Shown here piece by piece: positions 4,997 to 34,300 of a stretch of DNA of 64,000 bases (the first letter of the stretch is position 1; each line of letters starts with the position of its first letter). Origin of the DNA: a virus; IMG/VR virus record IMGVR_UViG_3300045988_076381; one strand, given 5' to 3'. The notes beneath the pieces were generated by a model. The model was not told where the DNA came from. It saw only the letters and a program-made list of their open reading frames with translations, and did no database searches. A program made the position numbers and the translations under genes.

Positions 4997-4997
4997 T

Positions 4998-5870: not shown

Positions 5871-5886
5871 AATATCATTTAAATAA

Positions 5887-6183: not shown

Positions 6184-6184
6184 A

Positions 6185-6352: not shown

Positions 6353-6354
6353 TT

Positions 6355-6829: not shown

Positions 6830-6833
6830 TAAA

Positions 6834-7880: not shown

Positions 7881-7881
7881 A

Positions 7882-8247: not shown

Positions 8248-8272
8248 TATTAACATTTTAAATATATTTATT

Positions 8273-8542: not shown

Positions 8543-8545
8543 AAC

Positions 8546-9299: not shown

Positions 9300-9310
9300 A
9301 TTTTTAATGA

Positions 9311-10635: not shown

Positions 10636-10654
10636 TATCCAAATTAAATATAAT

Positions 10655-11128
10655 ATGTCAATTAAAATAAGATCTAGAGTTTTAAAAGCTTCCGAATACA
10701 CCCATTCCATAATATTATTTTCCGATAAATTTCCAGAAAATGAAAATTTTATCCAGAAAATAATATATTACACAGCAAAAGGTATTTTAAATCTTTTTTC
10801 AGTATCTAAATTAGGAGATTTTTTATCCGGATATGTTCTTCAAAAAGTATTTAAACATAGAGGAATATTTGAATATTGGGTAAAAAATAAATGCCAAACT
10901 AAAATTATATATAATATACCTCGCTACCAATTAGACACCCTTATCGAGCGTTGTGATAAAGAAAATATTCCAACCTATCAAGATATCGATTTTAAAACAA
11001 AAGAGTGTGTAGGTCTTTATATAGGGCCTTATTGGACAAATAAATTATATTATGTCTTAGATAACAGAATCATCCAAGAAAAATTTGAATCAGATTTAGA
11101 TATAAAGAATGATGATAAAAATGTGTAA
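10655..11128 (+). CDS. hypothetical protein (157 aa)
   Basis: ORF in the string. Confidence 0.5.
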   Translation: MSIKIRSRVLKASEYTHSIILFSDKFPENENFIQKIIYYTAKGILNLFSVSKLGDFLSGYVLQKVFKHRGIFEYWVKNKCQTKIIYNIPRYQLDTLIERCDKENIPTYQDIDFKTKECVGLYIGPYWTNKLYYVLDNRIIQEKFESDLDIKNDDKNV

Positions 11129-11148
11129 AATAGATTTTAGAATTTAAT

Positions 11149-11856
11149 ATGAATAAAAATAAAAATCCTTTCGTATCATATTCGGAGTTTTTTACTAAAT
11201 TAGATCCTAATACAGAGAAAGTATCTCCAGAAATATTAGATATGAAATTTAAAGATTTAACAAATGATAGAAACAATATTTCTAACAGCCCTGGCAATAA
11301 TGATTCTGGGGTATCTACTAATAGCAGCTCCGATAATTTTAATTTTACTAAACCAGCTGATTCTAGCAATTTGGAAACTAATAGAGCCAATATGGGACAA
11401 AATCAAAAGAATGAATTAAAGAAGCAGATTACTTCTTATATAAATTCTTTAGACATAGAAAATGATTATAAGAAATATTTAATTAGATTAGCTGAAAGAG
11501 AGAGTAATTTTAATCCAGAAGTAATAAATGCACAAGGATTTAAAGGATTATTTCAATTTGGGGATGATGCTTTAAGAGATATCGGGATGACTACTTCTGA
11601 TTATATGTCAGATTGGAAGAAGCAGATTGATGCTGTTATTAAATTTACTAATTTAAATAGAGAAAGACTTAGAAATACCCTAAGAGGAACTAATGGAAAA
11701 GATATCGATGGGACTAAGATAAATGAGTGGGGCTTATTAGGAGCTGCGCATCTAGGTGGCGTTGGGGGAGTGAACAAGTTCCTGTTTAAAGGAGCTAATC
11801 CAGTTGATGCGAATAATACTAGTATAAAAGATTATTTAATATACTTTAGTAAGTAA
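11149..11856 (+). CDS. SLT-domain lytic transglycosylase
   Basis: ERESNFNPEVINAQGFKGLFQF matches the SLT catalytic E-S...GLxQ motif. The N-terminal region is S/N-rich and low-complexity. Confidence 0.75.
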   Translation: MNKNKNPFVSYSEFFTKLDPNTEKVSPEILDMKFKDLTNDRNNISNSPGNNDSGVSTNSSSDNFNFTKPADSSNLETNRANMGQNQKNELKKQITSYINSLDIENDYKKYLIRLAERESNFNPEVINAQGFKGLFQFGDDALRDIGMTTSDYMSDWKKQIDAVIKFTNLNRERLRNTLRGTNGKDIDGTKINEWGLLGAAHLGGVGGVNKFLFKGANPVDANNTSIKDYLIYFSK

Positions 11857-20100: not shown

Positions 20101-21228
20101 ATCATCATCAAATTTACCATACACTATATCTTTATCTCTACTAAAATTCGGAATTAGCAGTAAATCTCCTGGAACTAAAGAGTATAATTGAGCTTCTGTA
20201 GTAACTTTGACTGGTTCTGAATAATTTAGATTATATAAATCCTTTTTAGGATTACCTTCCGAATCTAATACAGTCGATTCATAATTCTTCCAGATTATTT
20301 CTGATATTTGTTGATAGGATACATTCTTAGATTTTGGAATTTCCATTTCTATATAATAAGAATCATTCTTACCAACAAATGGAGGTTCATCATTTTCTTT
20401 AGTTGTATTTAATATAATATCTAACTCCTGATTAGATTTTTGAATAAATGGATTTATATCCATAGAAAATAGTCTACTAATAAATTCATTAAATAAATCA
20501 GAATTATTTAAATTTAGTACATCTCTGTATCTAGGTTCTGATACTAAATATGCGATGAATTCGTTTAAATCATAACTAGATCCTTTAGATACTTTATTAA
20601 TAAACTCTTTTATGTAAGGATTCTTATCCTGATTTTGTTTAGCAGTAGTATATATATTATATGCTATCTCATTTATTCTTTCAAAATTAGAATCCGTTTT
20701 ATTTATTTTAGAATAATATAAATGAAGTAACTCATGATATAAATCCCTGAGGGTTGCATCATTAAAGGTTCCATTAGTTTTTAAGATAATAAATTCATTA
20801 TTTAACAAAGTCCCTCTAACATCTACATTTTCATCAATATTTAGTGATTCTATATTTTCATCTAATAACAATATATTTGGTTGAGAAGGATTAATAGCAT
20901 TCATATCTATTAATTTATTAACCAAAGTATAATAACTCTCTTGTAGAGATTTATCAGATGTATAAGGAACTAAAGAATTTCCTATGTCTTCTATACTAGC
21001 ATTTCCAATTAAAGGCTCTCCATTAGAATATACTATCTTAGTAGATAAAAGATTTAAATCCGAAAGAGTACTTAACAAGATATTTAAAGAATCAATATCT
21101 AGATTAGAAATAGACTCACTCAAAGTAACTGCACTAACTTCATCATACGAAGTTAAGTTGGTAGGAATAATCCCACCAACTTTTTCTTCTCCATCTATAG
21201 TATATTGTATTTCTATATTACATCCCAT
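17167..21228 (-). CDS. giant virion-block protein (1353 aa from MGC start) with two HExxH motifs
   Basis: Motifs YHELLHLYY (about 20722-20745) and LHELMHLIMG (about 17661-17700). The ATG at 21228 (MGCNIE) is preferred because it matches the conserved junction motif; the track start is 21237. Confidence 0.8.
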   Translation of the reverse strand: MGCNIEIQYTIDGEEKVGGIIPTNLTSYDEVSAVTLSESISNLDIDSLNILLSTLSDLNLLSTKIVYSNGEPLIGNASIEDIGNSLVPYTSDKSLQESYYTLVNKLIDMNAINPSQPNILLLDENIESLNIDENVDVRGTLLNNEFIILKTNGTFNDATLRDLYHELLHLYYSKINKTDSNFERINEIAYNIYTTAKQNQDKNPYIKEFINKVSKGSSYDLNEFIAYLVSEPRYRDVLNLNNSDLFNEFISRLFSMDINPFIQKSNQELDIILNTTKENDEPPFVGKNDSYYIEMEIPKSKNVSYQQISEIIWKNYESTVLDSEGNPKKDLYNLNYSEPVKVTTEAQLYSLVPGDLLLIPNFSRDKDIVYGKFDDDYFSYVKYHPIQSVWKNRNGETFITLVNKYGSNVGHFTISYTDLVKLSLEKNKQIVFRKLYGALKDPNLPEDLIKNVRDTYERNIESEDYNNQPLIKSIGFDRKGLSFKYYTVGKSGFKLDVSNGTNATITQELRQNDIIKLRSWNKEDENSEWDSFTYYAPVVRTIGTIVEVALKNKDGKYFTKKIPFRNIETVIFTKENHPDLDNVYNQFINDYDTYSLNTKDKSKYQSIWFNLNILKSDQQPYRKLEGDFSDNLDRESVIKYRRDKVRSLRIGDSVSIEWDLKRTDGSPVISKHIVVGISGDRIYFLNRTTNDSAPKIGFVDLKTEFPLSENSKGQRINIPSLSAIHYNNTSDLELVEDLNTKKENVSKAFIRVDNEIVFDPNSNYIPLKDLYHIINIDSSNAEQETAKLQRGDIIRFKENDITFIGVVSNYDPITGTIIVPGSYRSGYLKRRSFRKIVSPQQLEYIGFAINPNYELGIIGHKEISEYNKKRLSRLYDLNHSTYGYSLEEILKKKSLLNKSRDWAIEQEAVYVIPKNITEREFKERYQDSKKKTLPHGRVSLLTPTILDMIKNGELIDLTSEYIKANNVKDTKIYGLKNIRTGIQVNDSTGFYYDPRIYQRSPEQVINIIEVDDVVKIKYNDKFTKYLRIKSITDKGINLESEIVGLNGEIYNNSWYINLNDIKSGKYLISELYYPINKTRQKELENLSITDEIPQIKKVEYFTDTYDKFDKKKILNRVIENINSTYNNIINVIDDAKIQELVDSENLNSTLADSFSRAGAFIWNGKIYVNINRADISSPLHELMHLIMGAMRSKNYSLYSSLLDKVATLPEFNERFRNILTNRTLNDAKEEAFVEFIADSLSGVFSSEEFNINNLLSSTDFFGEYLKVLDSTLSLDLNTLPEKISETLSRKLSKMPIEKIITEFNSLLLSAGNKRFSLFNPENVSEAFKNRNITNIKSSLLNSKNPNTQLLEKC

Positions 21229-21230
21229 AG

Positions 21231-24200
21231 TTAACAATTTATAATAAGTTTTATTTTATTAAGCCTCATTAGATTATTTATAAGCTCGACTGTTTCAATA
21301 GTTTTGCTAGTCTTATTATTAATCTCTTTTAATTTATAGTTATAATTACTTCTTATTAAGTAATATCTTTCATCTCCTAGAAGATCCACTTCTTTAAATT
21401 TTTTATTCTTAGTATCTTTTCCTATTTGTTCTAAGAGCTGATATTTACCTAAATCTTCATTATATACCTTTACATATTTATTATTAGAAATTAATGCTTC
21501 AAAACTATCTCTAATTGAAGCCATTCTAAGAAGGATATCATCTATATTAACATCTTCCATAGTTACTTTATCACTCTTTGAATCATAAATTACTCCGGGA
21601 GTTATAGTATTTAAATCTAATCCTCCAATATATTTAAAGTAATCTACAATTAAACTTCCAGGATTAAATACTGATCCTTGTAATACTTTTAATATACTAT
21701 CTTGTCCTTTTCTCCCTTTATGAGTAATTAAATTATATATGAAAAATAAATCTGATAACTTGATCCCTCTAAATTCAACATTTTCAATTTCTCCAAATGC
21801 TGAAACTTGTTTATCAAATTCTGGATTATTTACAGTAGTAACCATATTTATAGATGGTCTGTAATATATATAATTAGATCCATCTAATTTAGAAGTATTA
21901 TCAGTTATAATTAATCCATTTAAAAATGCGTTATTAACTAACTGAGATCCAAAAGTCATTACTCCTTTAGAATTAATTGTATATCCACTCTTTAACATTG
22001 GAATTACATAAGATTCCATATATAATTTAAAGGATGCTAAACCATCATCATTAGATAAAGAATAAGATGTCTGCTCGGTAGCAGTAAGCATTTCCCCATT
22101 TAAGAAATAATTTTGGCCTTTAGGAACTGAAATAGATAAATTTTTATTTTTTAAATACTTCCTAATTATCAATTCATCTATATAATCTCTAATGATATTT
22201 AGTTGAGATTCAGATAGTTTATTAGGCATAGTAATTTTACCAATCCTCCTTCTCATTATTACGTTTTCTAAATTATCTATAATAGAGTTTGATAATGCAT
22301 ATTTAACACTTCCTAATTTAGAATTTTGTTCATTTATATAATAAGCATTAATAAATGCTTTATAATGCGGAAGAGAATCTATTAAATCAAATACATTTAT
22401 TACAGACTTTATTAAATTATAGAATTTAATAACAGATTCAGCATAATCAGGTTGTTCTAAAAATTTAGTTAAATCAAATTTCATACTAGAAAAAGTTCCA
22501 TTTGAAGACATTTTATCTAGAGCATCTCCAACTATAGAAGATAATTCTTGATCTGTATATATATTCCCAATATTAGGGTTATATTCTTTTAATGCCCCAA
22601 TAAAATAATCAGCTGTATCTCCGGTTAATTGAAGTTTATCTAATCCATTCTGAATTAATGTATTAAAGGACTTGCTGAAATTATATCTATCATATTGTTT
22701 AGTCTTTATACCTCCATTAATTCCTAAAATTTGACCTAACGTAGCTATTTCTTTTGCTCCAGTGTAAGCTTTTACAAAGGTAGTAAAATTTGTTTTAGAT
22801 TTTACTGATGAATTAAACAAATCTTTTAAATCTTTAAATTTCCTCACTTGTTTAAAATATCTAATTAATCCCTGCACTACTTCCTCAGAAGATCTAACTA
22901 ATGCTAATTCATCCCACTCTGACATAGAATCTAAGAATGTTAAAGCATACTCTTCATCAAGAAATCTTTCATTAACAAAATTATATTTAGTAGTTTCAAG
23001 ATCATTTATAATTTCGTTTATATCATTTGATGTTAGTTCATTAAGTTTAAATGCGGAGATTATCTTAGAATTATATAATGTATTTAAATATAATGAAACA
23101 GATTTTACATATCCTTTTCCAATAAAATTTGTAAGTGATGGTCCTTTTTCTATATTTCTTAATGTGGAATCTATAGTAGCGTATTGATCATACATTCTAT
23201 TAACTGTAGCTGCTTGAACTATAGCATTAACCTCTGAACTAGTCATAAGATCTGAGATATTATCAAATGATAAGCCTTGGATTAATAAATATACATATAC
23301 TCCAGCCAGGTCAGGACCAGCGTTAATCTTTGATAAGATCAATTCTTTAGCATTGTCAGTAGCAGCTGAGATTAAACTTGAGATAACGAGAGATTTGTCT
23401 TCTTGAAATCTATTTTGTGTAAGATCTATTGCATCATTCACACTAATACTTTTATCTCTAGCCTCATTTAAAAGATCATATACAAACTCAATATCATCAA
23501 GATTAATGTTAGCCAAACTATTTGTGAATAATTTAACGAGTTCCCCATCACTCTTCCCTTCATTTCCAGGAATATTTTTATAAATCTCAAAAACATTATT
23601 AAAATATAAATTTGATTTTAATAAATCTTCTACAGTTAATCCTTTTTCAGCTAATTTTCTTATCTCCTGATTAAAGTACTGAGTTGCAGCTAAAAATACC
23701 TTTTGTCCTACAGCACTTATACCGATAACTTCCTTCCCTGCCATATTCTCGAAGAATAAGTTCCATTTAACAGATGGACAGAAATCTGTAACCGTTTTAG
23801 CATAAGCTCCAGCCTCAGATTTAGCAGCAGCAGCTTGTGGGTCTCCCATACTAATAGGTGATTCGGCAGCTACAAGATTCTTAAAGTTATCAGAGATTTG
23901 ATAGATTTTATTATATACAAAATTCTTTGTAGCGGATAAAAGTTTATTTGGACTTATTTCTTTAAGATGTCTAGATATATCAATATCTAAATTCTCTATC
24001 ATATTTGATATAAGTATTCTGGCACTTTCTATATCCTCATTCCTTGATTTATCATCTGAATTTTCTTTTATATAATTTAGATCATTAACTAAATCAGGAT
24101 TATAATATAATTGTATATTAGTTTGTTTGAATCTATCTACCTTATTTAAAACATCTACAGCTAATTTTAATCTAGTATTATCCCCATCATATTCTCCGTT

Positions 24201-24395
24201 TAAGATAGATAAGATTTCAGGAGTTATATCTATATAAGGTATTTCCGGATTTATTTCAGAAGTTATTGTATATTTTAAATCTGAATTTGGAAATGGTAAT
24301 TGTTTTGAGAGTTCAAATGATTCATTATCTCTATAATTAAATAACGATGACCATGCTTCATAAATTCCATTTTTATTTATTAAAGGCATTGTCAT
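21231..24395 (-). CDS. giant protein segment (1054 aa as annotated); probable 3' exon of a spliced gene
   Basis: Long ORF whose frame stays open for 12 codons upstream of its ATG (back to TGA 24434-24432), immediately downstream of two group I intron cores. Confidence 0.75.
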   Translation of the reverse strand: MTMPLINKNGIYEAWSSLFNYRDNESFELSKQLPFPNSDLKYTITSEINPEIPYIDITPEILSILNGEYDGDNTRLKLAVDVLNKVDRFKQTNIQLYYNPDLVNDLNYIKENSDDKSRNEDIESARILISNMIENLDIDISRHLKEISPNKLLSATKNFVYNKIYQISDNFKNLVAAESPISMGDPQAAAAKSEAGAYAKTVTDFCPSVKWNLFFENMAGKEVIGISAVGQKVFLAATQYFNQEIRKLAEKGLTVEDLLKSNLYFNNVFEIYKNIPGNEGKSDGELVKLFTNSLANINLDDIEFVYDLLNEARDKSISVNDAIDLTQNRFQEDKSLVISSLISAATDNAKELILSKINAGPDLAGVYVYLLIQGLSFDNISDLMTSSEVNAIVQAATVNRMYDQYATIDSTLRNIEKGPSLTNFIGKGYVKSVSLYLNTLYNSKIISAFKLNELTSNDINEIINDLETTKYNFVNERFLDEEYALTFLDSMSEWDELALVRSSEEVVQGLIRYFKQVRKFKDLKDLFNSSVKSKTNFTTFVKAYTGAKEIATLGQILGINGGIKTKQYDRYNFSKSFNTLIQNGLDKLQLTGDTADYFIGALKEYNPNIGNIYTDQELSSIVGDALDKMSSNGTFSSMKFDLTKFLEQPDYAESVIKFYNLIKSVINVFDLIDSLPHYKAFINAYYINEQNSKLGSVKYALSNSIIDNLENVIMRRRIGKITMPNKLSESQLNIIRDYIDELIIRKYLKNKNLSISVPKGQNYFLNGEMLTATEQTSYSLSNDDGLASFKLYMESYVIPMLKSGYTINSKGVMTFGSQLVNNAFLNGLIITDNTSKLDGSNYIYYRPSINMVTTVNNPEFDKQVSAFGEIENVEFRGIKLSDLFFIYNLITHKGRKGQDSILKVLQGSVFNPGSLIVDYFKYIGGLDLNTITPGVIYDSKSDKVTMEDVNIDDILLRMASIRDSFEALISNNKYVKVYNEDLGKYQLLEQIGKDTKNKKFKEVDLLGDERYYLIRSNYNYKLKEINNKTSKTIETVELINNLMRLNKIKLIINC

Positions 24396-24413
24396 GTAGA
24401 CTTTATCAATATC

Positions 24414-24731
24414 CGTTTGACCTTTATATTTTCATATAAAGACTGACTATATCATCACTTTTAAAGTGCCTCCCGCTTCGGATTATTTAAATCCTACTCT
24501 ACTAAGTTCTATTTAAATATTAAATAGCTTTTCGATAGTCGATGAACTCTTCTCTTATATAAGAGACTTAGCTGCGGATTACCCAATCTTAATACTTTTT
24601 ACTATACTGAGGTAATTACTCTCACCATTTAAATATTACTATCTAAACTTAGTATATTAAGCTCTAAGGGATTTCCCGCAATTCAAGAGGTTTAATGACT
24701 ACAATATAACCTATAGTCCGATCCTTGGCTG
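24414..24731 (-). ncRNA. group I (IA-like) intron core, copy 2 (boundaries approximate)
   Basis: Core elements P AAUUGCGGGAAA (24683-24672), Q AAUCCGCAGC (24580-24571), R GUUCAUCGACUAU (24547-24535), S AUGAUAUAGUC (24455-24445). Helices P4 UGCGGG/UCCGCA, P6 UCUCUUAU/AUAAGAGA, P7 GACUAU/AUAGUC, P7.1 CUAUUUA/UAAAUAG, P7.2 GGAUU/AAUCC, P3 CCUCUU/GGGAGG, P8 CACUU/AAGUG, P9 CUUUAUAU/AUAUAAAG. Confidence 0.8.
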
Positions 24732-24734
24732 AGA

Positions 24735-24976
24735 CTTATTATCTTATAACTGTTTATGTTATAATTCTATGATTTCATTTTGTTATATTCATAGTTTAGA
24801 CTATATCTTCATGAATTACTCATGTTGGATGCTCGTGGGAGAGATTATTGTTAGGCTCACTCTCCTAGTCGTTGAACCTTCTAGATTCTTTTAACCTAAA
24901 TCTAGCTCGGCTGCTGATTGTCCACTTCTGGAGTTCCCAGCAATTCTTCCAATTTTATATGACCCCTAAGTATTTA
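24735..24976 (-). ncRNA. group I (IA-like) intron core, copy 1 (boundaries approximate)
   Basis: Core elements P AAUUGCUGGGAA (24945-24934), Q AAUCAGCAGCC (24919-24909), R GUUCAACGACUAGG (24877-24864), S AAGAUAUAGUC (24809-24799). Helices P1 AUAUGGCU/GGUCAUAU, P3 UUGGA/UCCAA, P4 UGCUGG/UCAGCA, P5 UCCA/UGGA, P6 CUAGAUU/AAUCUAG, P7 GACUA/UAGUC, P7.1 GGAGAG/CUCUCC, P8 CAUGA/UCAUG, P9 CUAUGA/UCAUAG. Confidence 0.8.
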
Positions 24977-27900
24977 AGCCATATCTGATACAGATTAACA
25001 TAAGCTTCATTACTTTCTGCATCAGAGAATCCTACTACATCCATTGTCATAATAGACTGAAATGCTTGTGCAGGAATACGATTCGCTGTTATTTTTAAAC
25101 TCTCAATAAATGATCTATATATCTTCTTAGAATCTCTTTCGATTCTTCTATTTATATAATCATCATATTCATCTTTTATCTCTTCTATACTACTATTATT
25201 TATAGCTAATTCTTCTCCTAATCTCGAATCTGTCATATTTATATAATCTCTTAACTCTTTAATATTATCAGAATTAAAATTATACCATATTCCTATATAC
25301 TCATCAGAAGAATTAAATACATTAACTAAATTCCCTAAATTAGAAGGATCTACAACAATCACTTCTTGAACTATTCCATTACTAGTATCCTGATAAAAAT
25401 GAAGTCCAGATGTTTTATATACAGCTTCTCCATTTTCATTTAATCTCCATTCTTCTCCATCTATAACTTCTGTTAATATTTCCAGTGGAGTTAGTGAAGA
25501 TATATAATTTTCAGAACTAGGCTTATTTATAATAATTCTAGTATTATCTAAACTATTCTTTAGAAATTCTATATCATTAGGAAGAGGATCAGATTTAGCT
25601 TTATTATATGTTCTTAATAATTTCTGTCTAAAGTACTCCCCATTACTATTAATAATATTCGCAATATTATCTCCAGTTCGTAATCCGAATATAGATTGAT
25701 ATACCTTAGATATTACAGCCTGTGCTCTTTTTATATTTAAATCATGTATTCTTACTCCTTGAAGTCCTCCGACAAATTCTATTATATCATTGTTATCTAT
25801 AATCATTTGATATTCAGGCATTCTCGGATCTAATAACATAATATTTTCATCCAATAATCCAATATATCTATTAACAAACTGTTGAAGTGCTAGAATTTCC
25901 TCTTTAGATGCTTTAGACTCTCTTAATCTAAACATATCTTCGATTATCGGATGGTCATAAATATTATATTTCTTATTTATCCCATCAATACTCCAAGTAG
26001 CTCTAAAAGGTTGAAGTTCTTTTCTGATTCCTTTTAAATTAGTTACTGTAGTATTTAAATTCCTATAATGTTTAAATTTATCATAAGTATTTATATCCAC
26101 CTGTTCTCCAGTAGTAGGATCTAATACAATATCACCAAATTCTATTAAATCCGTAGATATTTCCTGTGTTAAATTTCCTGTTTCTAAATATCTATCTAAA
26201 CCTGATCTAAGAATATTTCCATTTTCATCAGTAAGAGAATAATAACCAGCTTCATTAGCTATATGTATTAAATCTTCCTGAGAATAATATCCTCTTAAAA
26301 CATTTCCATTAGAATCAAATAAATTCTCAGATCCATCAAAATAATAATGTTTTATAGATCCATAAGAAGGAATCATTACAGCTCCCATACCAGAGAAAGT
26401 TCTTTTAATACTATCAGAGTTCATTTTAGATGCTAACATAGTTATAAAAGAACTATTTATACTTCCGGAACTAAACGGAATTTTAAATCTTAAATCTCTA
26501 GCATTAAATAATTCATTATTTAAATTCTCCTCAAACTCTCTTGCAGCTTCTTCCAAATAACCAGTAATTACTCCATCTCCAGAGCTTCCTTCGAAGGCTT
26601 TAATAGTTGCTTTAGCTAGAAGTTTATATAATAATGTTTTATTAGCTTCTCCTAATTCTGTAAGAGTTTCTAAGTTATTAGCTTGATTATGCGCTTCAAA
26701 ATACTTCTTTAAAGTAGTATTTACTACAGAACCTAAAGCTCTATAAGCCGCATCAGCTAAATCTGATGTATATCCATTAGCTGCTAAAGTACTAATAATC
26801 TGAGTAGATTCAGTAACAGTAGATAAATCAGCATGGTGATCTGCATCCATTTGAATACCCACGAATTGTGTACCAACTCTACCATAGGATAAAGGAGTAT
26901 CATCGTATCTAGCATTGGCTGGATTTGTATTAAACGCTCCAACTTTTATTGATGTTCCATTTGCTAGGTAATGTATATCAGAGTATTTAAGAGGTTGATA
27001 TATATAATTCTGATCTAGTATTACTCTTAATTTTCTTTGTTCGTCTAATATATAACTAGAATCTTCTGGAATATTGTTAAATGTAAATGGAAGATCTTGT
27101 TTAGATATAATTGTATTTAATAAATCTAAATCACCATTAACCATATTTAATAGATCCCTCTTAGTTATATAATATCCGGTTTTATTCATAAACTGTACTG
27201 TAGCATTTACAGAAGCCTCTCCTTTATCTCCGGAATTACTTAAATAAGGATCTAAAGGATTAGAATTATCTAATGAATAAGAATACTCTCCACCTAGAGC
27301 TTTCCATAATTTATAATTACTATCTATTACTACAGTTCTTGTTACATTTCTACTATTCTGAGTATCTCCCCCGTTATTATTAACTCTTCGTTCTATAATA
27401 TTATAAGTATTATTTCCTAGAGATTCTAAATCAATTATTCTATAATATTCTCCATTATTCGCATTATAATAATATAAATCCTCGGATATAATATCTCTAA
27501 GATGACGTTTATTACCATTAAAATCTTGCATTAAATTAATAATAGGAACATCCCATTTTCTATCAGTCATTTTTTGCAACAATTTAACTTTCTCCGGAGA
27601 TTTTCTCATTCGATAATTAGTTATAGAGAATATAGCACATTTCATTAATAACCCATTACCAAATTCAAGATCTACATTATATCCAAAATTCTTTCTATTA
27701 TATCCAGCACTAGAGCTAAACATTGAATTGTTCTCTAACACATTTTGAAATGGATTACATTCCATAGAGCCATCTAATACCTTTACATTATCAGTCTCCC
27801 CAGAAGGATTAAATACAGGAGCTTCTATATCTTTGATAATTGCTACATTTATAGTTGGAGTTGTTCCTTCTAATGCTTTTTGATAATAGTTGTGTATAGT

Positions 27901-30900
27901 AGCCTGCATAGCAACCATACGTTTATATTGAGCTAATAATCTATTAGCATGATCCCGGATAAAATATTCCGGATTTATAGATCCATCGGAATTTAAATAA
28001 TACACGCCTCTTAATTTAGAAGGATGTGCATAAGGTTCACCTACACTTACTTGAAGGAATTGATTAGATAAGAACCCATCCAAAAAGAAATATTTTTCTA
28101 ATATAGGATTTAATTTCCCATCTTTTTCTAATAACATCATTCCATCTCTGCCAATCCAATTTTTTAGAGAAGGAATATCTTTTAAGAATTTAAATACTTT
28201 GGTATCTACTTCAATACCTTTAGATTTTAAATCCTTTTTAAATATCTCTTTTGATCTATTTATAAAATCCTTGTAATAAGAATTATCTGTAGTAGATACT
28301 TGATAGATATTAGCCATATTTTCTATAAATGGATTTAATCTAAATACACTATTACCTTTAGACATTTCCACTTTAGAATAATGAACTTCTTCTATAAATT
28401 TAAAATTAGGATCTTCTAAACTTAATTCTCTAGCTATTTGAGAGACTTCCTTCCATCTAGTAGATAAGAGATTATTTATTGCGATGATATTATTATTTAT
28501 AATCTCAGCTTTTTCTTTCTTATTTTTAATTTTAGATATAGAATCTAATAAAGAAACACCTAATCTTTCACCTATTCTATAATAAGATTTAAATAAATTT
28601 GATAATAGATTAGTATAATAAATCTGTTGGCTATTAAAATTCTCTACTTCGATCTGAGTAGCAGATGCAGATTTAATATTCTTCCCATCAAATTTAATAT
28701 CCTTAGATATTTTAATAAGAGATTGATTAGATTTATCTGCGTATACAGTTGGAAGAAATTCTATATAATTAATTTGATCATTCATTAGATTTTTGAAATA
28801 ATCTAATATTATAGATGATACTCCGTACTCAGAAACATTGAATTTATTCTTTTGTACTGTTGTTCCATTTGGAGATATAAATTCTGTTTTTAATCCAATT
28901 CCTTTTAAATATTCTGGATTATTATAGAATATATTAGATTCGAATATATTAGATATATTAGAATGCTTTCTAACATTATTCTGATAATCTCTAGTAGTAT
29001 ATATAAACTCGTGTATGTTTTTAACTAAATTCATCAATCCTATAGATGGCACATTATCTCCATCAGAGTTTTTATATGTACTTGGACTAGCTTCTCTATT
29101 TAATAAATTTATGGAACTAACTGCGGCTTTAAATACACTTGATCTATCTCCTTTAGAATTTAAATTAACCTTTAATCTTGGTCTAGTTTTACTTGATGTA
29201 AAGAATTTATTAAAAGTAATATCCTTCATTGTTTTAAATTCTGGAAAGGATTTTTTTACTTTAGATTTAAATTCTCCTGGAGTAAGATTAACTTTATTAG
29301 AATCATATTCTTTATATATAGAATCTAGAGTATCAATTGTTTTAAGTGTTCTATATAATAATCCCAAAAGATCTCCTTTTAGATTAGATTCGGCTTCCGT
29401 TCTATATTGTGATTTTAATATAGAATATAATTGCCCAGAACTATTTATAAATGGAAGATCTGTAGATAATTGTAACAATTCTAACAACCTAAATCCATTC
29501 ATAATAGATTCTGATAAAGTTTTACCATTTATAATCGCACTAACTTGTTCTGGATTTGGGATTGTAATACTATCTAATAATTCTTTATTTAAATCTTTTC
29601 CAGTTATAGCATCTTCGTTAGCAATATTTAAATGATCATTAATAAATAATGTTCTAGATCCAATGGTGATAGAAATAGAATCATCTAAGACCTTAACTCT
29701 AAATTTATTTCGTAATACATTTAAAATAGTATTATCATAATCACCATTTCTAGCTATAGAATCAACATATTCAGTTAAATTTCTTTCCTGTCTAAATAAA
29801 GAGGATTCATAAGTTAGATTTGAGAATGTATTTACTTCATACTCTTTACTTTCTGAATTATATTCATATGATATATATTCTGATCCATCCTGTTTATTCA
29901 TATAAGCTAAGACATCCAAGAAATAGTTAAAACTTAAATCTCCTTGGTTATCTTTAATTATATTATATAAAGATTTAGCTTCTGGAGTAGAGTCAAAGAT
30001 GTATTTATATATAGACAATAATGCCTTTTTAGTATCTAAATTAAAGTCTAAATTCTTCTTAAATTTATTTATTTTTGATGGATCAGTTTTTCCATCTGTA
30101 ACAAATAAAGAATTAAAAAATTCTATATAAGCTACTGTAGGATTTAATTTACCTAATTTTAATGAATTATATTTATTAGAAGATTTAATAACAGGATCTC
30201 CGATTCTAGATATAGCATTGTTAAATTCATTAACTGTCATATAAGATATCTCATCCCATTTCCCATCAGAATCTAATAAAGGAATATTTTGTATAATAGC
30301 TTTAGTTAAACTAGTAGTCTCTCTATTTATATCGGAATCTTCATTAACTCTAAAATGTTGTCTTAATGCATTTTTAGTGAACGGAAGATATTTAATTTCA
30401 TTTCTATTAGTAGATTTAATTCCTAATTTAAATGGATCTATTGAAATTAATCCGTCTGTTAATAATACTATTAAATTATCAAAATTCTCTAAAGTCACTA
30501 AAGCGTTATATGCATTTAAATAATCTTGATTAGATTTAGATAAAGGAGTGTATAGAACATTATTAATCGAATTTAATTTTGATGTAGGATTATGTTGATC
30601 ATAATATTCATTTAATCTAGATATAATAGTAGTAAATTCTGTAATATTAAAAGATCCATCCTGATTATATAAAGGAATAATATCTTTTTCTCCTAAAAAT
30701 TTTGTTATATGATTAAATAATATTTGTTTATATTCTGCAATATTATTATTTAATTCTGAATAAGTTCGAACAATTTTTCCAGAATCTAGATTTAGAAAGG
30801 AATTTTTAAATATCTCCCTTTTAAATGTAGAAACAAATCTATTATATAAACTATTATTATTTTGAAATTTAGTAATTAAATCTCTATTAGTCTTTATTTC

Positions 30901-31338
30901 TTCATTATAGGTAACGTTTTTTCTACTTCTATTTAATTGTTCTACATATTCTTTCGTAGCTAAATCTCTATCCTCCTCCGTCACAGATTCATCTTCTTCT
31001 ATAGTCTTTACTTCATTCTCTAATGTAGTTACTAGAGGATCTGGATTTTTATATTCTTCCGGAGGTAAAGTTTTTTCTATATTCTTAGTTAAAATTTTAT
31101 CTAAGGAATTATTAAGTATTGTATTTAATTCCGTATTATAGGAAAATAATCTTATATATTCCTTTATTGCATCTACTAAATTTTCATCAGAATCAATGAT
31201 AAAATCTTTTTGCAGAGAATTTTTAATATTCTGAAATTGTTGATCTGAAATAGTATCTCCCTGAAAATTAATCCAGGGAGATAGATTTATTAAAAATTCT
31301 GGGCTTCTAGTGTTTGAATCAAAAAATTTACAAGCCAT
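24955..31338 (-). CDS. giant virion-block protein (2127 aa from MACKFF start); probable 5' exon of a spliced gene
   Basis: Uninterrupted 6.4-kb ORF. Its last ~7 codons and stop lie inside the predicted P1/P2 region of intron copy 1. The size is similar to crAss-like virion RNA polymerases, but no catalytic motif could be assigned confidently. Confidence 0.8.
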   Translation of the reverse strand: MACKFFDSNTRSPEFLINLSPWINFQGDTISDQQFQNIKNSLQKDFIIDSDENLVDAIKEYIRLFSYNTELNTILNNSLDKILTKNIEKTLPPEEYKNPDPLVTTLENEVKTIEEDESVTEEDRDLATKEYVEQLNRSRKNVTYNEEIKTNRDLITKFQNNNSLYNRFVSTFKREIFKNSFLNLDSGKIVRTYSELNNNIAEYKQILFNHITKFLGEKDIIPLYNQDGSFNITEFTTIISRLNEYYDQHNPTSKLNSINNVLYTPLSKSNQDYLNAYNALVTLENFDNLIVLLTDGLISIDPFKLGIKSTNRNEIKYLPFTKNALRQHFRVNEDSDINRETTSLTKAIIQNIPLLDSDGKWDEISYMTVNEFNNAISRIGDPVIKSSNKYNSLKLGKLNPTVAYIEFFNSLFVTDGKTDPSKINKFKKNLDFNLDTKKALLSIYKYIFDSTPEAKSLYNIIKDNQGDLSFNYFLDVLAYMNKQDGSEYISYEYNSESKEYEVNTFSNLTYESSLFRQERNLTEYVDSIARNGDYDNTILNVLRNKFRVKVLDDSISITIGSRTLFINDHLNIANEDAITGKDLNKELLDSITIPNPEQVSAIINGKTLSESIMNGFRLLELLQLSTDLPFINSSGQLYSILKSQYRTEAESNLKGDLLGLLYRTLKTIDTLDSIYKEYDSNKVNLTPGEFKSKVKKSFPEFKTMKDITFNKFFTSSKTRPRLKVNLNSKGDRSSVFKAAVSSINLLNREASPSTYKNSDGDNVPSIGLMNLVKNIHEFIYTTRDYQNNVRKHSNISNIFESNIFYNNPEYLKGIGLKTEFISPNGTTVQKNKFNVSEYGVSSIILDYFKNLMNDQINYIEFLPTVYADKSNQSLIKISKDIKFDGKNIKSASATQIEVENFNSQQIYYTNLLSNLFKSYYRIGERLGVSLLDSISKIKNKKEKAEIINNNIIAINNLLSTRWKEVSQIARELSLEDPNFKFIEEVHYSKVEMSKGNSVFRLNPFIENMANIYQVSTTDNSYYKDFINRSKEIFKKDLKSKGIEVDTKVFKFLKDIPSLKNWIGRDGMMLLEKDGKLNPILEKYFFLDGFLSNQFLQVSVGEPYAHPSKLRGVYYLNSDGSINPEYFIRDHANRLLAQYKRMVAMQATIHNYYQKALEGTTPTINVAIIKDIEAPVFNPSGETDNVKVLDGSMECNPFQNVLENNSMFSSSAGYNRKNFGYNVDLEFGNGLLMKCAIFSITNYRMRKSPEKVKLLQKMTDRKWDVPIINLMQDFNGNKRHLRDIISEDLYYYNANNGEYYRIIDLESLGNNTYNIIERRVNNNGGDTQNSRNVTRTVVIDSNYKLWKALGGEYSYSLDNSNPLDPYLSNSGDKGEASVNATVQFMNKTGYYITKRDLLNMVNGDLDLLNTIISKQDLPFTFNNIPEDSSYILDEQRKLRVILDQNYIYQPLKYSDIHYLANGTSIKVGAFNTNPANARYDDTPLSYGRVGTQFVGIQMDADHHADLSTVTESTQIISTLAANGYTSDLADAAYRALGSVVNTTLKKYFEAHNQANNLETLTELGEANKTLLYKLLAKATIKAFEGSSGDGVITGYLEEAAREFEENLNNELFNARDLRFKIPFSSGSINSSFITMLASKMNSDSIKRTFSGMGAVMIPSYGSIKHYYFDGSENLFDSNGNVLRGYYSQEDLIHIANEAGYYSLTDENGNILRSGLDRYLETGNLTQEISTDLIEFGDIVLDPTTGEQVDINTYDKFKHYRNLNTTVTNLKGIRKELQPFRATWSIDGINKKYNIYDHPIIEDMFRLRESKASKEEILALQQFVNRYIGLLDENIMLLDPRMPEYQMIIDNNDIIEFVGGLQGVRIHDLNIKRAQAVISKVYQSIFGLRTGDNIANIINSNGEYFRQKLLRTYNKAKSDPLPNDIEFLKNSLDNTRIIINKPSSENYISSLTPLEILTEVIDGEEWRLNENGEAVYKTSGLHFYQDTSNGIVQEVIVVDPSNLGNLVNVFNSSDEYIGIWYNFNSDNIKELRDYINMTDSRLGEELAINNSSIEEIKDEYDDYINRRIERDSKKIYRSFIESLKITANRIPAQAFQSIMTMDVVGFSDAESNEAYVNLYQIWLKYLGVI

Positions 31339-31340
31339 AT

Positions 31341-34300
31341 TTAACAAATATTATATTTACTTCTTATCTTATTTATATCAGATAGTATTGTTTGTATATT
31401 CATATTAGATAAAATTAAATTTACTGTATCAGGGATGATTTCAGATTTAGTTATATAATCCACTAGTAAGTTATTGCTATCATAAGTTAATAACACTTTT
31501 GTTATATTTCTTAATATTTCTAAATCTTTAGGATCTGATACTACATCAAACATTTTTCCAAATGCTTGTGACAAAGATATAATATTTTTATCAGAATTAC
31601 TATCTTCTCTTACTAAATTTTCTTTATTCCTAGAATAGATGTTTAGAGAATCTTTTTCAAAGTTATAGTCTATATAATCCACTTCTGTTGTAGAATCTAA
31701 ACTAATAGATTCTGATTTAAGACGATTATTTACTAATCCTAAAATATTTCTTATATCTTCTGAGATAGAAGTTTCCGAACGTCTAGCAGGATTAGTGAGA
31801 ATAGATCCAATTGAATCATCTATAAGATCATTTAGATCATTATTACTAGTATTTAATTTACGTCCTATTTCTGCTCCTAATATTTCTAATGTATTTATAG
31901 GAGCTTCTGATTTGGTTTCTACTTCTGGTTTAATTCTTTCAACTCTAGCAATGCCAAAATTAGTAGGATCAGCTAAATCTCTAGAAGGTTGGAATACGAA
32001 TTGTGGGGTTTGAATATCTCTATCTATATAATACTGCCCCTCAGGATTTCTTGCTTCGTAAAAATATTCTCCTCCAGTATAATCGGTTTTCTTATCTGTT
32101 AATTCATAAACTGGAAATGGAAAAATTCCATTTTTAAATAAAGGATTATAATTAGGAGCTTCTACAGAATTAATACTTCCATCAGGCTGTTTATAATTTC
32201 TTCTTCCCAACATAGCAAATTCCATAAAATCAATTATATCTAAATCAGTAATTCCATCTTCTTTATTCCAATCCTGAAATATTCCACCATTCTCTTCATT
32301 TATAATTGGAGAAGAAACTAATAATTCAGGATGTAACCTTTGATTTATCTTAAACTCTATAATTTTATTTATAAATTTAAGTACATCATTTCCGTTAATA
32401 GTAGAAGAATAATTTTCCATCTTTTTTATCTCTTCTGGAGTAGTTTCCATATGTAACCTCTCCATTATTCTTAGGATATGAGGTAATCCAAATTTAACTT
32501 TAGAACCAGGAAGATCAAATGGATTTTCCGCATTTCCTTCTTTGGCAGCAAGTGCTGATAGAGAATTAAGTAACTTTTCAGCAATTTTTATGTGCTTAGA
32601 TTCCGGCTTTCCAGTAGTTTTTAGGTAATTATAATAATTATATATAGATAGTAATGTATCAAATCCTATAAAATCTCCAAAGTAAGATTTATAAAATTTA
32701 CCATTATATTTAGCTACTCCAGAATTCTTTTTATATGAATTTATAAATTCTCTATATTTAGATATAAAGGATTGGAATGTTTGTCCTTCCGGATTTAAAA
32801 TGATCATTCTAATTTTATCTCTTCTATCTAGATCATTATCATATTTTCCATTCATTTGGTCTATGTAATAATCTCCATACTGATCTTCTGAGATAATATT
32901 ATCATCCTCATCAAATATATATTTACTATGTGTAGCAAATACTACTGCTTTGCCTTTGATATTATTCTTATTTATTTCAGCATTTAATCTCTCAGATTTA
33001 GATTTTAATATAGGTTCTAATCTAGATTTTTGAGTAGTATCTGCTTTATTATATTCCTCTAAAGTTTCATAATAATCATTATATAGAGTATTTAATCTCT
33101 CGTTACGTTGAATTAATAACTCATTCCGATTAGATTTACCGTATCTAGTATTAGTTACTATATAAGGTTTGGAGAAGTAAATTCCTCTAAATTCAGATTC
33201 TTTAGATTCAAATGGAACATGTGCAAATTTTTTCTTATCTGATCCTTTATATATAATACTATTAGTAATTCGTTCTAATTCGAAATCATCTCTAAGCTGG
33301 AAATATTTATTAGATTTTCCACTTTCATCCAAAATGAAACTATTCATTATTTGTCCATAGAATTTTTGATATTCTACAAACCATGCTTTAGAAGCTCTTT
33401 GTTCTGGAGTATCAGAATCTTTAATTCTAAAAGATTCATTATTAATATTTGGTAATTCTACTATATAAAGCTCTACAGTATTCTCTTCTGTAGAAGAATT
33501 TAATATAGGAATTTCATATATAATTCTAATAACAGAATCTTCTTTTCCTATAGATTTATTAAAATATTTAGTTGCTTTTAATACAAACTTCCCGTTAGAT
33601 AAATCTAATGTTCCAGTATTTCCAGATATGTCATTATATAAATTAGATAAATCTTGTTCAATATTATAATCTTTAAATAATTTATTTCTTCTGGATTTTG
33701 TGTAATTATATAATATACTCTTTACTTCTAATATCTTTTCATCAACTCTTTCGAATTGTGTAGGATTTAAGCCATCAATTTCTCCATTAAAGAATGCTCT
33801 ATGTTCACTATTTGAATCTAATCTTAGCATTATAGCGGAATCTTTAATGCTATAAGTAGTTATATCACCATTAATTTCTGCTTTAGGTTTAATTCTTGTT
33901 CTATAAGAATAACATATAAAACTATCAGGAGAATGTTTCTCTGTTTTAGATTCTATTCTTTCTAATTGTTGAATTTCTCTATTAGCTTCTGGAGAATCAC
34001 TAAATGCAGCATCTAAAACTTTTCCTAATTCTACATTAGGTTGGGGTGTTGAGACTGATGTAGTAGAAGATTCTTTCTTTTGAGGTTCTATAGTTTTATT
34101 CTCTAACGAAGCATTAAGAGCTTTCAATCTTAATTCTGAGAAAGATTTAGCAGCTTCATTATTTAATATAGAGGATTGTGTATAACTAATTCTTTCAGAT
34201 CCTTTAGTAAGTTTAGTAGTTAACCCATTATTTATAATAATAGTACCTTCTTTAGATCTAGTTATAGCAGTATATAAATCTCTAGTAGCTTTTTCTACAA

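What the first reader, a model, noticed from the sequence alone, without database searches (positions are those of the whole stretch)
24396..24990. Tandem introns with a micro-exon of 3 nt or less likely fuse the 2130-aa and 1054-aa ORFs into one ~3180-aa product
The two ribozyme cores fill the whole 559-nt gap, which is the only large non-coding gap in the giant-ORF block. Between P9/P9.1 of copy 1 and P1/P2 of copy 2 there is essentially no room for exon. The best boundary I can draw is ...AUAAUAAG|UCU|CAGCC (24735|24734-24732|24731). There UCU(GA) can pair with the copy-1 guide UUAGG (P10), and AGUCU pairs with GGACU as P1 of copy 2. Because the putative micro-exon is 3 nt, several splice models all keep the reading frame. 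One gives ...YQIWL-S-DIDKVYMTMPLINK and another gives ...YQIWLLQTDIDKVYMT.... The 1054-aa frame is open for 12 codons upstream of its ATG. Multiple group I introns in one phage gene are known. Two ORF-less introns abutting with a near-zero exon inside a giant virion-protein gene would be unusual. It would also make synthesis of the C-terminal third splicing-dependent. Exact splice sites cannot be fixed by eye.
Basis: inference. Interest (0 to 1): 0.9.

Follow-up and report, generated by a model that had tools for sequence, protein, structure and literature searches.

The report
Two introns split phage RNA-polymerase gene
Two self-splicing group I introns, separated by a 16-base (not 3-base) micro-exon, interrupt what is really one ~3,189-residue gene, most likely a crAss-like phage virion RNA polymerase, right at its catalytic Asp-x-Asp-x-Asp motif; this kind of arrangement is already known from intron-rich gut phages.

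Summary
The 559-nt gap (24396-24954, minus strand) contains two full-length group I introns (Rfam RF00028, 64.8 and 62.2 bits, cut-off 50). The main interpretation also holds: the 2130-aa and 1054-aa ORFs are exons of one gene. Intron-less relatives read straight through (L024: ...YQIWLQGSDYDIDKAY...). Of the 147 best family representatives, 130 carry the uninterrupted motif and 112 of those are at least 2800 aa (median 3273).

The "micro-exon of 3 nt or less" and both proposed junction peptides are wrong. The micro-exon is 16 nt, CCAAGGAUCGGACUAU (24728-24713). Exon 1 ends at 24977, intron 1 is 24976-24729, intron 2 is 24712-24414, and exon 3 starts at 24413. The spliced product is 3189 aa: ...YQIWL-QGSDY-DIDKVYMTMPL.... 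Near-identical strains carrying intron 2 only, a different intron only, or both introns fix these junctions.

The micro-exon supplies the first Asp of the invariant GSD[YFL]D[IV]D motif, which matches the DFDID catalytic motif of crAss-like virion RNA polymerase gp66. Fold and profile searches for that identity were inconclusive. Three alternative intron sites lie within 16 nt. This is a new member of a known kind, of moderate interest.

The parts
24977..31347 (-). Exon 1 of the giant gene, ending ...UAU CAG AUA UGG CU (residues 1-2123 plus two bases of the Leu-2124 codon). The annotated 2130-aa ORF runs on into intron 1 and ends with the spurious tail KYLGVI*.
   Evidence: ORF list; translation; comparison with relatives that lack intron 1 (L002, L003, L008, L024).
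24977..24984 (-). 5' exon strand of intron 1 P1 (AUAUGGCU). The last U (24977) forms the U.G wobble at the 5' splice site.
   Evidence: Complementary to GGUCAUAU at 24964-24957 (read from the sequence; coordinates checked). The same pairing is present in L005/L006.
24729..24976 (-). Intron 1 (site A): 248 nt, no ORF, group I, IA-like with one P7.1-type hairpin. The terminal G is 24729 (...UCUCAG).
   Evidence: RF00028, 64.8 bits. The orthologue in L005/L006 is 85-88% identical. L020/L029 have T at the position of 24735 but keep the CAG.
24957..24970 (-). Internal guide sequence of intron 1. CUUAGG (24970-24965) pairs with the start of the micro-exon, CCAAGG (P10). GGUCAUAU (24964-24957) pairs with the end of exon 1 (P1). 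It overlaps the false stop codon of the 2130-aa ORF.
   Evidence: Read from the sequence. L005 has CUUGG|GGUCAUAU, a perfect complement of CCAAG. The U-to-C change in L026 turns a G.U in P10 into G-C.
24713..24728 (-). Micro-exon, 16 nt: C CAA GGA UCG GAC UAU. It holds the third base of the Leu codon plus Gln-Gly-Ser-Asp-Tyr, and so encodes the first Asp of the DxDxD motif.
   Evidence: The homologous codons are contiguous with exon 1 in L002/L008, with exon 3 in L003/L007, and with both in L024. Variants in L005 (UCU) and L020/L029 (GGU) are synonymous.
24414..24712 (-). Intron 2 (site C): 299 nt, no ORF, group I, IA-like with P7.1/P7.2-type insertions. The terminal G is 24414 (...CAAACG).
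   Evidence: RF00028, 62.2 bits. Orthologues are 88-92% identical in L002/L005/L008 and 65-75% in L033/L034.
24697..24707 (-). Internal guide sequence of intron 2. AUAUU (24707-24703) pairs with the start of exon 3, GAUAU (P10). GUAGUC (24702-24697) pairs with the micro-exon end GACUAU (P1, with U.G at the splice site).
   Evidence: Table of exon/guide pairs in 8 sequence types. Pair counts: 90.7% of cells paired, 4 of 9 pairs changed on both sides, slid controls 33-59%.
21231..24413 (-). Exon 3: GAU AUU GAU AAA GUC UAC AUG... = DIDKVY plus the annotated 1054-aa ORF. It carries the second and third Asp of DxDxD.
   Evidence: Translation. P0003 and L003/L007 show DYD[IV]DK[AV]Y contiguous. The spliced CDS is open for 3189 codons.

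Best explanation
The 2130-aa and 1054-aa ORFs are exons 1 and 3 of one gene. Two independent, ORF-less, self-splicing group I introns sit 16 nt apart in it.

Each intron uses a conventional internal guide sequence:
- Intron 1 pairs GGUCAUAU with the end of exon 1 (AUAUGGCU; U.G at the splice site after 24977). It pairs the adjoining CUUAGG with the first six bases of the micro-exon (P10).
- Intron 2 pairs GUAGUC with the last six bases of the micro-exon (GACUAU; U.G after 24713). It pairs the adjoining AUAUU with the start of exon 3 (GAUAU).

The 16-nt micro-exon is therefore almost entirely taken up by recognition sequences: 6 nt for intron 1, a 4-nt spacer, and 6 nt for intron 2.

Removing both introns yields a 3189-aa protein reading ...ANRIPAQAFQSIMTMDVVGFSDAESNEAYVNLYQIWLQGSDYDIDKVYMTMPL.... 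The micro-exon supplies Q-G-S-D-Y, which includes the first Asp of the family's invariant GSD-x-D-x-D motif. That motif has the same form as the DFDID catalytic Mg-binding motif of crAss-like phage virion RNA polymerase gp66.

The protein is therefore most likely the phage's giant two-barrel RNA polymerase, and it can only be catalytically competent after both splicing events.

Shown: the introns, the junctions, the continuity of the gene in relatives, and the conservation of the motif.

Inferred: splicing activity in vivo, the RNA polymerase function, and packaging in the virion.
For: 1. Both introns match RF00028 above the gathering score over the full model.

2. Natural intron-minus alleles exist for every site.
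- L002/L004/L008 lack intron 1 and read TGG CTT CAA GGA AGT GAC TAT|intron.
- L003/L007 lack introns 1 and 2 and read ...GGT AGT|other intron|GAT TAT GAT ATT GAT AAA.
- L024 has no intron here at all, with TTG CAA GGT AGC GAT TAT between the Trp codon and DIDK.
- L002, L003 and L005 are near-identical strains, and all three give the same spliced peptide, YQIWLQGSDYDIDKVY.

3. The spliced window CDS is one open frame of 3189 codons.

4. An HMMER search of 1.84 billion representatives found 1232 relatives. Of the top 147, 130 have the continuous motif [WYFL]xQGSD[YFL]D[IV]D. Of those 130, 112 are at least 2800 aa (median 3273 aa; for example P0018 is 3181 aa). About a dozen begin just after the motif, like the window's 1054-aa ORF.

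5. P1 of intron 2 co-varies with the exon: AGUGACUAU/GUAGUCACU, UCUGACUAU/GUAGUCAGA, AGUGACUUU/GAAGUCACU, CGACUUU/GAAGUCG. The U.G pair is invariant at the splice site.

6. L020/L029 carry AAUAAUUCUCAG|CCAAGGUUCGGACUAU. The G at 24735 is absent and the CAG is retained. All micro-exon variants are synonymous.

7. R, P, S and G-S-D-x-D-x-D are invariant in alignments of 59 and of 20 diverse relatives.

8. Literature. gp66 of crAss-like phage phi14:2 carries 1361-DFDID-1365. Each Asp is essential, and the fourth position is Ile or Val in all crAss-like RNA polymerases (10.1101/2020.03.07.982082). crAss-like genomes have a block of giant proteins, one of them carrying DxDxD. In the figure showing that block, a LAGLIDADG domain is marked as an intron-encoded endonuclease. 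Some groups have a high intron density (PMC7886860).

9. The window shows such a block of seven contiguous large ORFs. The 1490-aa ORF has an exonuclease hit (a faint PDDEXK hit in its homologues).
Against: - There are no RNA data, so splicing, its order and its efficiency are inferred.
- Intron 2's P1 in the window is only 6 bp, against 9 bp in strains without intron 1. Intron 1's P10 has an A.A mismatch.
- The RNA polymerase assignment rests on a short motif plus gene context.
  - Pfam and PHROGs gave nothing.
  - Sequence and profile searches of the PDB gave nothing.
  - Both AlphaFold models were of low confidence at the motif, and Foldseek found nothing.
- The intron 1 boundaries could slide by one base (CUU|...C|CAA). 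That gives the same protein but needs a terminal C instead of G.
Confidence: 0.9

Rival explanations
1. The two ribozymes abut, with a micro-exon of 3 nt or less (UCU, 24734-24732). Intron 1 ends at G24735, and P1 of intron 2 is AGUCU/GGACU. The product is ...YQIWL-S-DIDKVY... or ...YQIWLLQTDIDKVY....
For: The Rfam alignment of intron 2 does draw a P1 using AAGUCUCAG/AUCGGACUA. These models keep the reading frame.
Against: - L020/L029 have U instead of G at the position of 24735, so no terminal G is available there. The proposed AGUCU/GGACU helix also loses a pair.
- L005/L006 have both introns but lack the UCUCAG hexamer altogether.
- The model discards QGSDY. G, S and the first D are invariant across the family.
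- The homologous bases are demonstrably coding in L002, L003, L008 and L024.
Confidence: 0.01
2. Same introns, but intron 1 ends at G24735. The micro-exon is then 22 nt (UCUCAGCCAAGGAUCGGACUAU), and two extra residues are inserted (WL-LS-QGSDYDID).
For: It is in frame. G24735 is present in the window and in most tandem-intron strains.
Against: - L020/L029 lack that G and L005/L006 lack the hexamer, yet both keep G|CCAAGG.
- None of the 130 continuous relatives has an insertion between [WYFL]x and QGSD.
- The CCAAGG/CUUAGG P10 is longer, and it is supported by L005 and L026.
Confidence: 0.04
3. The two ORFs are expressed as separate polypeptides (a split gene). The introns are decayed relics or are not spliced. 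Alternatively, the tandem pair is removed as one unit, as in some fungal tandem twintrons.
For: - Gene callers report separate ORFs.
- The 1054-aa ORF has its own ATG.
- Multisubunit RNA polymerases are naturally split.
- In Ophiostoma, the cox3-640 tandem group IA modules appear to splice as one unit (PMC12308204).
Against: - Without splicing, no product contains the first Asp of the triad. The micro-exon has no start codon, and the 1054-aa ORF starts after the motif.
- Composite removal would join UGG CU to GAU AUU. By hand translation this shifts the frame and stops after 8 codons (WLILIKST*).
- Both ribozyme cores score above threshold.
- Guide sequences co-vary with the exons.
- Micro-exon variation is purely synonymous.
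Confidence: 0.04

Closest known systems
Group I introns (with or without homing endonucleases) in core genes of crAss-like phages, especially the intron-rich Delta and Zeta groups (Yutin et al. 2021, PMC7886860)
   Same: - Gut-metagenome phage with contigs of 80-176 kb.
- A block of giant proteins, one with DxDxD.
- Group I introns that fragment essential genes.
- LAGLIDADG endonuclease ORFs in the same gene of relatives (L003, L008).
- TAG-recoded relatives (L035).
   Different: - That paper found introns through their protein domains. The two window introns have no ORF and would have been missed.
- The nucleotide-level splice map, the 16-nt micro-exon and the three alternative sites within 16 nt at the catalytic motif were not seen in the passages of the paper I searched for intron, RNAP and intein.
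- I did not test membership of the window in a particular crAss group.
Virion RNA polymerase gp66 of crAss-like phage phi14:2 (Drobysheva et al., 10.1101/2020.03.07.982082)
   Same: - A giant protein carrying a D-F/Y-D-I/V-D motif with Ile or Val (not Gly) in the fourth position.
- The motif is preceded here by an R-x-P...S segment reminiscent of beta' NRxPxLH.
- It lies within a block of very large genes.
   Different: - 3189 aa against 2180 aa.
- No detectable sequence or profile similarity to PDB chains, which I expect to include gp66.
- The fold was not confirmed.
- I saw no mention of introns in the gp66 gene in the passages read.
Several group I introns in one phage gene: DNA polymerase and terminase of Bastillevirinae (PMC11878797), Jug phages (PMC12880540), and phage Twort orf142 with three introns (Landthaler and Shub 1999, known to me only from its title in a reference list; not read)
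   Same: - Several IA-type self-splicing introns in one essential gene.
- Introns are present or absent among close strains.
- Insertion is at highly conserved codons.
   Different: In the passages I read I found no phage case of two introns only 16 nt apart, with the intervening exon consumed by P10 of one intron and P1 of the next. This is absence of evidence only.
Closely spaced or tandem organellar introns (Ophiostoma cob-201/219: two group IB introns 18 nt apart; cox3-640 tandem IA modules; rnl-576/577 group II introns with a 1-nt exon; PMC12308204)
   Same: Two autocatalytic introns are separated by an exon of 1-18 nt, which is easily mistaken for a single composite intron.
   Different: - Those are mitochondrial, are often endonuclease-bearing, and some splice as one unit.
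- Here the host is a phage. Both introns lack ORFs, and each has its own complete guide sequence, so independent splicing is expected.
PhiPA3 gp210 intron in a virion RNA polymerase subunit gene (PMC11620839)
   Same: A putative group I intron inserted next to conserved aspartates of a phage RNA polymerase gene. The endonuclease-bearing variants at this locus could act in the same way between co-infecting phages.
   Different: - That intron is in a beta-like subunit of a multisubunit jumbo-phage polymerase and carries an HNH endonuclease.
- The window's introns have no endonuclease.

Membership tests
Group I self-splicing intron (Rfam RF00028), intron 1 | Conserved catalytic core P3-P9 that scores above the family threshold | tested here: met
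   64.8 bits against a gathering score of 50, model positions 1-253, E 3.6e-14.
Group I self-splicing intron (Rfam RF00028), intron 2 | Conserved catalytic core P3-P9 that scores above the family threshold | tested here: met
   62.2 bits against 50, model positions 1-253, E 2.2e-13. Orthologues in relatives score 63-77 bits.
Group I intron (both introns) | 5' splice site after a U that forms a U.G wobble with the internal guide sequence (P1); intron ends in G | tested here: met
   - Intron 1: AUAUGGCU/GGUCAUAU, terminal G at 24729.
- Intron 2: GACUAU/GUAGUC, terminal G at 24414.
- For intron 2 the U.G pair is invariant in 6 distinct sequence types, and 4 of 9 P1 pairs show double-sided changes.
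- For intron 1 only two lineages are available, so the support is weaker.
Group I intron (both introns) | Self-splicing activity (guanosine-initiated transesterification) | not testable with these tools
   This needs in vitro transcription and splicing, or RNA-seq.
Mobile group I intron with a homing endonuclease | An endonuclease ORF inside the intron | tested here: not met
   - The introns are 248 and 299 nt and have no ORF.
- Relatives do carry LAGLIDADG or HNH-type ORFs at sites B and C.
Two-barrel RNA polymerase / crAss-like virion RNA polymerase (gp66-like) | Catalytic DxDxD (DFDID-type) motif, conserved across orthologues | tested here: met
   - The spliced sequence reads GSDYDID.
- G-S-D-x-D-x-D is invariant in alignments of 59 and of 20 relatives, and the fourth position is I or V in the counted motifs.
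- This matches the description of gp66.
Two-barrel RNA polymerase / crAss-like virion RNA polymerase (gp66-like) | Two double-psi beta-barrel domains; detectable homology to known RNA polymerases | tested here: inconclusive
   - Pfam, PHROGs and PDB sequence or profile searches gave nothing.
- hhalign against beta' gave probability 0.2.
- AlphaFold models have pLDDT below 50 at the motif.
- Foldseek gave no match.
Two-barrel RNA polymerase / crAss-like virion RNA polymerase (gp66-like) | Packaged in the virion; transcribes early genes | not testable with these tools
   This needs virion proteomics and biochemistry.
crAss-like phage (Crassvirales) | Hallmark capsid, portal and terminase genes, and phylogenetic placement | not tested
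   - The window holds replication genes, a block of giant ORFs and one 'virion structural protein' hit.
- There was no near match in GenBank phages.
- The only protein-level GenBank matches are unannotated 'Bacteriophage sp.' records from human faeces.

The most novel reading that the evidence does not exclude
The 16-nt micro-exon must serve at once as the P10 partner of the upstream ribozyme (6 nt) and the P1 partner of the downstream ribozyme (6 nt), with only 4 nt between them. Two ribozymes of about 250-300 nt may not be able to dock on it at the same time. Splicing would then be obligatorily ordered or coupled, or would partly fail by exon skipping to a truncated product. Production of the catalytically competent virion polymerase would become a kinetically gated step. 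Three intron lineages compete for sites within 16 nt of the catalytic codons, with endonuclease-bearing variants in relatives. The locus may therefore also be a hotspot of intron-mediated interference between co-infecting gut phages.
Probability: 0.2. Interest if true: 0.6.

Novelty: new member of a known kind. Interest (0 to 1): 0.42.

Why it matters
- Annotation. The gene would be called as two unrelated hypothetical proteins. The residues that define its probable function (the first catalytic Asp and the Gly-Ser before it) lie in a 16-nt exon that no gene caller would find. About a dozen of the top 147 database representatives of this family are such fragments.
- Biology. The locus is a compact natural experiment. 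Near-identical phage strains carry no intron, intron C, intron B (with an endonuclease), or A+C at the catalytic codons of an essential enzyme. That allows direct tests of intron homing, of how the guide sequence and exon evolve together, and of how two ribozymes share a very short exon.
- Expectations. It does not change what is known about group I introns or about intron-rich gut phages.

Tried and rejected
- Megablast of the locus against GenBank phages gave no match.
- PHROGs and Pfam on the separate ORFs and on the spliced junction region gave nothing relevant.
- phmmer and profile searches of PDB sequences with the spliced region (1, 8 and 20 sequences) gave nothing.
- Two AlphaFold2 runs were of low confidence exactly at the motif: P0008 with 14 rows, and a 400-residue stretch of P0040 with 20 rows. 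Foldseek against the PDB was therefore meaningless.
- The word-indexed homologue search returned only short fragments, because relatives are interrupted by introns or are TAG-recoded.
- I first considered 5' splice sites for intron 2 after the Ser codon or after GACU. I rejected both because they give U-A rather than U.G at the splice site, and because L003/L007 show GAT TAT GAT ATT contiguous.
- I considered G24735 as the end of intron 1 (22-nt exon) and rejected it on L020/L029 and L005.
- Landthaler and Shub 1999 (phage Twort) could not be read.
Full report
**Observation**

On the minus strand, a 2130-aa ORF (24955-31347) and a 1054-aa ORF (21231-24395) are separated by 559 nt. This is the only sizeable gap in a contiguous run of giant ORFs from 12690 to 46600. 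Rfam finds exactly two families' worth of signal in the 64-kb window, both RF00028 group I intron and both in this gap:
- 25012..24780: 64.8 bits, E 3.6e-14.
- 24741..24423: 62.2 bits, E 2.2e-13.

Both cover the full model and exceed the gathering score of 50. The two ribozymes are real and far beyond chance. They are about 50% identical to each other over their length (63% over aligned columns). They are therefore two different introns, not copies.

**Where the exons are**

A search with a provisional fused peptide returned three downstream-half fragments. One of them (P0003) begins MDYDVDKAYITSPIIN. This showed that the codons upstream of the window's ATG are coding.

I fetched the contigs that encode these proteins and 26 IMG/VR loci. 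Together they give a natural series of alleles:
- **No intron here:** L024. The DNA between the Trp codon and DIDK is TTG CAA GGT AGC GAT TAT. The protein reads ...NRIPAQAFQSIMTMKVVGFSDAESNEAYVSHYQIWLQGSDYDIDKAYITSPIIN inside a 2440-aa ORF that continues for about 1050 residues past the motif.
- **One intron after the Tyr/Phe codon (site C, the window's intron 2):** L002, L004, L008, L015, L018, L022, and the distant L033 and L034. L010, L012, L025 and L030-L032 also break here, but their gaps are much longer (1.1-1.8 kb).
- **One intron after the Ser codon (site B; absent from the window; a 1475-nt gap in most carriers):** L001, L003, L007, L009, L016, L017, L019, L027, L028. A LAGLIDADG ORF was seen in L003.
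- **Two introns, as in the window (sites A + C):** L005, L006, L011, L013, L014, L020, L021, L023, L026, L029.

L002, L003 and L005 are near-identical strains with three different intron configurations. All three splice to the same peptide, YQIWLQGSDYDIDKVY.

In window coordinates (verified):

| Element | Coordinates | Notes |
|---|---|---|
| Exon 1 | ends at 24977 | ...UGG CU |
| Intron 1 | 24976-24729 | 248 nt |
| Micro-exon | 24728-24713 | C CAA GGA UCG GAC UAU, 16 nt |
| Intron 2 | 24712-24414 | 299 nt |
| Exon 3 | starts at 24413 | GAU AUU GAU AAA... |

The spliced CDS is a single open frame of 3189 codons.

- Strains L020 and L029 read AAUAAUUCUCAG|CCAAGGUUCGGACUAU. That G is a U, while the CAG immediately before CCAAGG is kept.
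- L005/L006 have both introns but lack the UCUCAG hexamer altogether.
- The micro-exon variants (GGA/GGU, UCG/UCU) are all synonymous for QGSDY.

**Mechanism**

Both introns have textbook guide sequences.
- **Intron 1.** 5'-CUUAGG|GGUCAUAU-3' (24970-24957) is complementary to the ligated exons AUAUGGCU|CCAAGG. P1 has 8 bp with U.G at the splice site. P10 has 5 of 6 pairs.
  - In L005 the guide is CUUGG|GGUCAUAU, a perfect match to CCAAG.
  - In L026 a U-to-C change converts a G.U of P10 into G-C.
- **Intron 2.** 5'-AUAUU|GUAGUC-3' (24707-24697) is complementary to GACUAU|GAUAU.
  - Across eight exon/guide sequence types (six distinct over the nine pairs counted), P1 co-varies with the exon: UAU/GUA against UUU/GAA, and AGU/ACU against UCU/AGA. 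The U.G pair is invariant.
  - A formal count gives 90.7% of cells paired, 4 of 9 pairs with changes on both sides, and 33-59% paired when the partner strand is slid.

The micro-exon thus consists of 6 nt read by intron 1, 4 nt of spacer, and 6 nt read by intron 2. In the window, intron 2's P1 is only 6 bp, against 9 bp in strains without intron 1.

Removing the pair as one unit would join UGG CU to GAU AUU. By hand translation this shifts the frame and stops after eight codons. Both introns must therefore be excised separately. None of this has been observed at the RNA level.

**One gene of about 3200 codons**

I ran a profile of permitted fragments (alignment A3) through HMMER against 1.84 billion representatives.
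- It found 1232 relatives.
- Of the best 147, 130 contain the uninterrupted motif [WYFL]xQGSD[YFL]D[IV]D.
- Of those 130, 112 are at least 2800 aa, with a median of 3273 aa. For example, P0018 is 3181 aa with the motif at residue 2203.
- About a dozen start just after the motif and are 950-1056 aa long, like the window's downstream ORF.
- A GenBank record, MT835492.1, is also continuous here (AWL*GADYDIDKAY). It carries 28 in-frame TAG codons in the stretch examined, so it is TAG-recoded.

**What the protein is**

R-x-P, S and G-S-D-x-D-x-D are invariant in alignments of 59 and of 20 diverse relatives.

The published description of crAss-like virion RNA polymerase gp66 gives the catalytic motif as 1361-DFDID-1365. 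Ile or Val occupies the fourth position in all crAss-like orthologues, and each Asp is essential (10.1101/2020.03.07.982082).

Yutin et al. describe a 'transcription gene block' of several giant proteins, one of them with DxDxD. A figure legend there marks LAGLIDADG as an intron-encoded endonuclease within that block. They also report very high intron density in some groups with genomes of 145-192 kb (PMC7886860).

The window fits this picture: the giant-ORF block, an exonuclease hit in the 1490-aa ORF, relatives' contigs of 80-176 kb, and TAG-recoded relatives.

Every independent homology or fold test I could run was negative or uninformative. The polymerase assignment is therefore a well-motivated inference rather than a demonstration. 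I did not test membership in Crassvirales.

**Comparison with what is known**

- Several group I introns in one phage gene, and presence/absence of introns among strains, are well known (PMC11878797, PMC12880540, PMC7886860).
- An intron next to conserved aspartates of a phage RNA polymerase gene is known in PhiPA3 (PMC11620839).
- Two group I introns 18 nt apart are known in fungal mitochondria (PMC12308204).
- What seems particular here is the combination: two ORF-less introns 16 nt apart in a phage, three alternative insertion sites (A, B, C) within 16 nt of the catalytic codons, and a micro-exon that encodes the first catalytic Asp.
- The site-B intron of L001 is 72-82% identical over aligned columns to site-C introns. 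This suggests one lineage that has occupied two sites 6 nt apart.

**Verdict**

The headline feature, a near-zero exon, is refuted and replaced by a 16-nt micro-exon. I rate this a new member of a known kind, of moderate interest. It is useful mainly as a clean, annotatable example and as a tractable system for studying how two ribozymes share a very short exon.

Noticed in passing
window 23355/23354 (minus strand, between the Asp and Asn codons of ...SLISAATD|NAKELILSKINAG); L002 11036-11334, L005 4995-5292, L001 2939-3267, L008 11116-12516: Relatives carry a further group I intron at a second site in the same gene, about 350 codons downstream, just after ...SAATD. The Rfam hits score 54.7-64.1 bits, and L008 has a LAGLIDADG ORF there. 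The window is continuous at this point. AATDNAKELIL is among the most conserved stretches of the family.
   Followed up: partly
L001 1555-1921; L003 8514-9970; L009, L016, L017, L019, L027, L028 (gaps of 1475 nt): A third intron site (B, after the Ser codon of QGS) lies 6 nt upstream of site C and is used instead of sites A and C in many strains. L003 shows a 356-aa LAGLIDADG ORF there. The ORF-less L001 version is 72-82% identical (aligned columns) to site-C introns, so it may be the same lineage retargeted by 6 nt.
   Followed up: partly
L010 2235-4001 (also L012, L030; L025; L031/L032): The interruption after the Tyr codon is 1.1-1.8 kb long in these strains. In L010 it holds two endonuclease-like ORFs: 207 aa with HNH, homing-endonuclease and intron-encoded-nuclease PHROG hits, and 233 aa of LAGLIDADG type. 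I did not resolve whether this is one intron with two ORFs or another tandem pair.
   Followed up: partly
L035 (GenBank MT835492.1, 66806-80161, reverse complement): This unannotated human-faecal 'Bacteriophage sp.' record has the orthologous gene without introns at the motif. It carries 28 in-frame TAG codons in 660 codons and no ORF of 200 aa or more under code 11, so TAG is evidently reassigned. One TAG aligns with the Gln of WLQG.
   Followed up: partly
window 12690-17162 (-), 31341-40148 (-), 52716-57629 (-): Other giant ORFs have weak domain hits. The 1490-aa ORF has an exonuclease hit (phrog_298; faint PDDEXK_1 in its homologues). The 2935-aa ORF has a sub-threshold AAA_19 helicase-like stretch at residues 1594-1784. 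The 1637-aa ORF matches a 'virion structural protein' family (phrog_15100, E 4e-27). The rest have no hits at all.
   Followed up: no
window 29015-29635 (+) and 20984-21244 (+): ORFs of 206 aa and 86 aa lie antisense within or overlapping the giant minus-strand genes. They are probably chance ORFs in AT-rich sequence (window GC 27.8%).
   Followed up: no
window 744-11856 (+): A divergently oriented replication and nucleotide-metabolism module lies here: a Dda-like helicase (744-2246), an ATP-dependent DNA ligase (2723-3988) and a thymidylate-synthase-like protein (9311-10309). No tRNA genes were found anywhere in the window.
   Followed up: no
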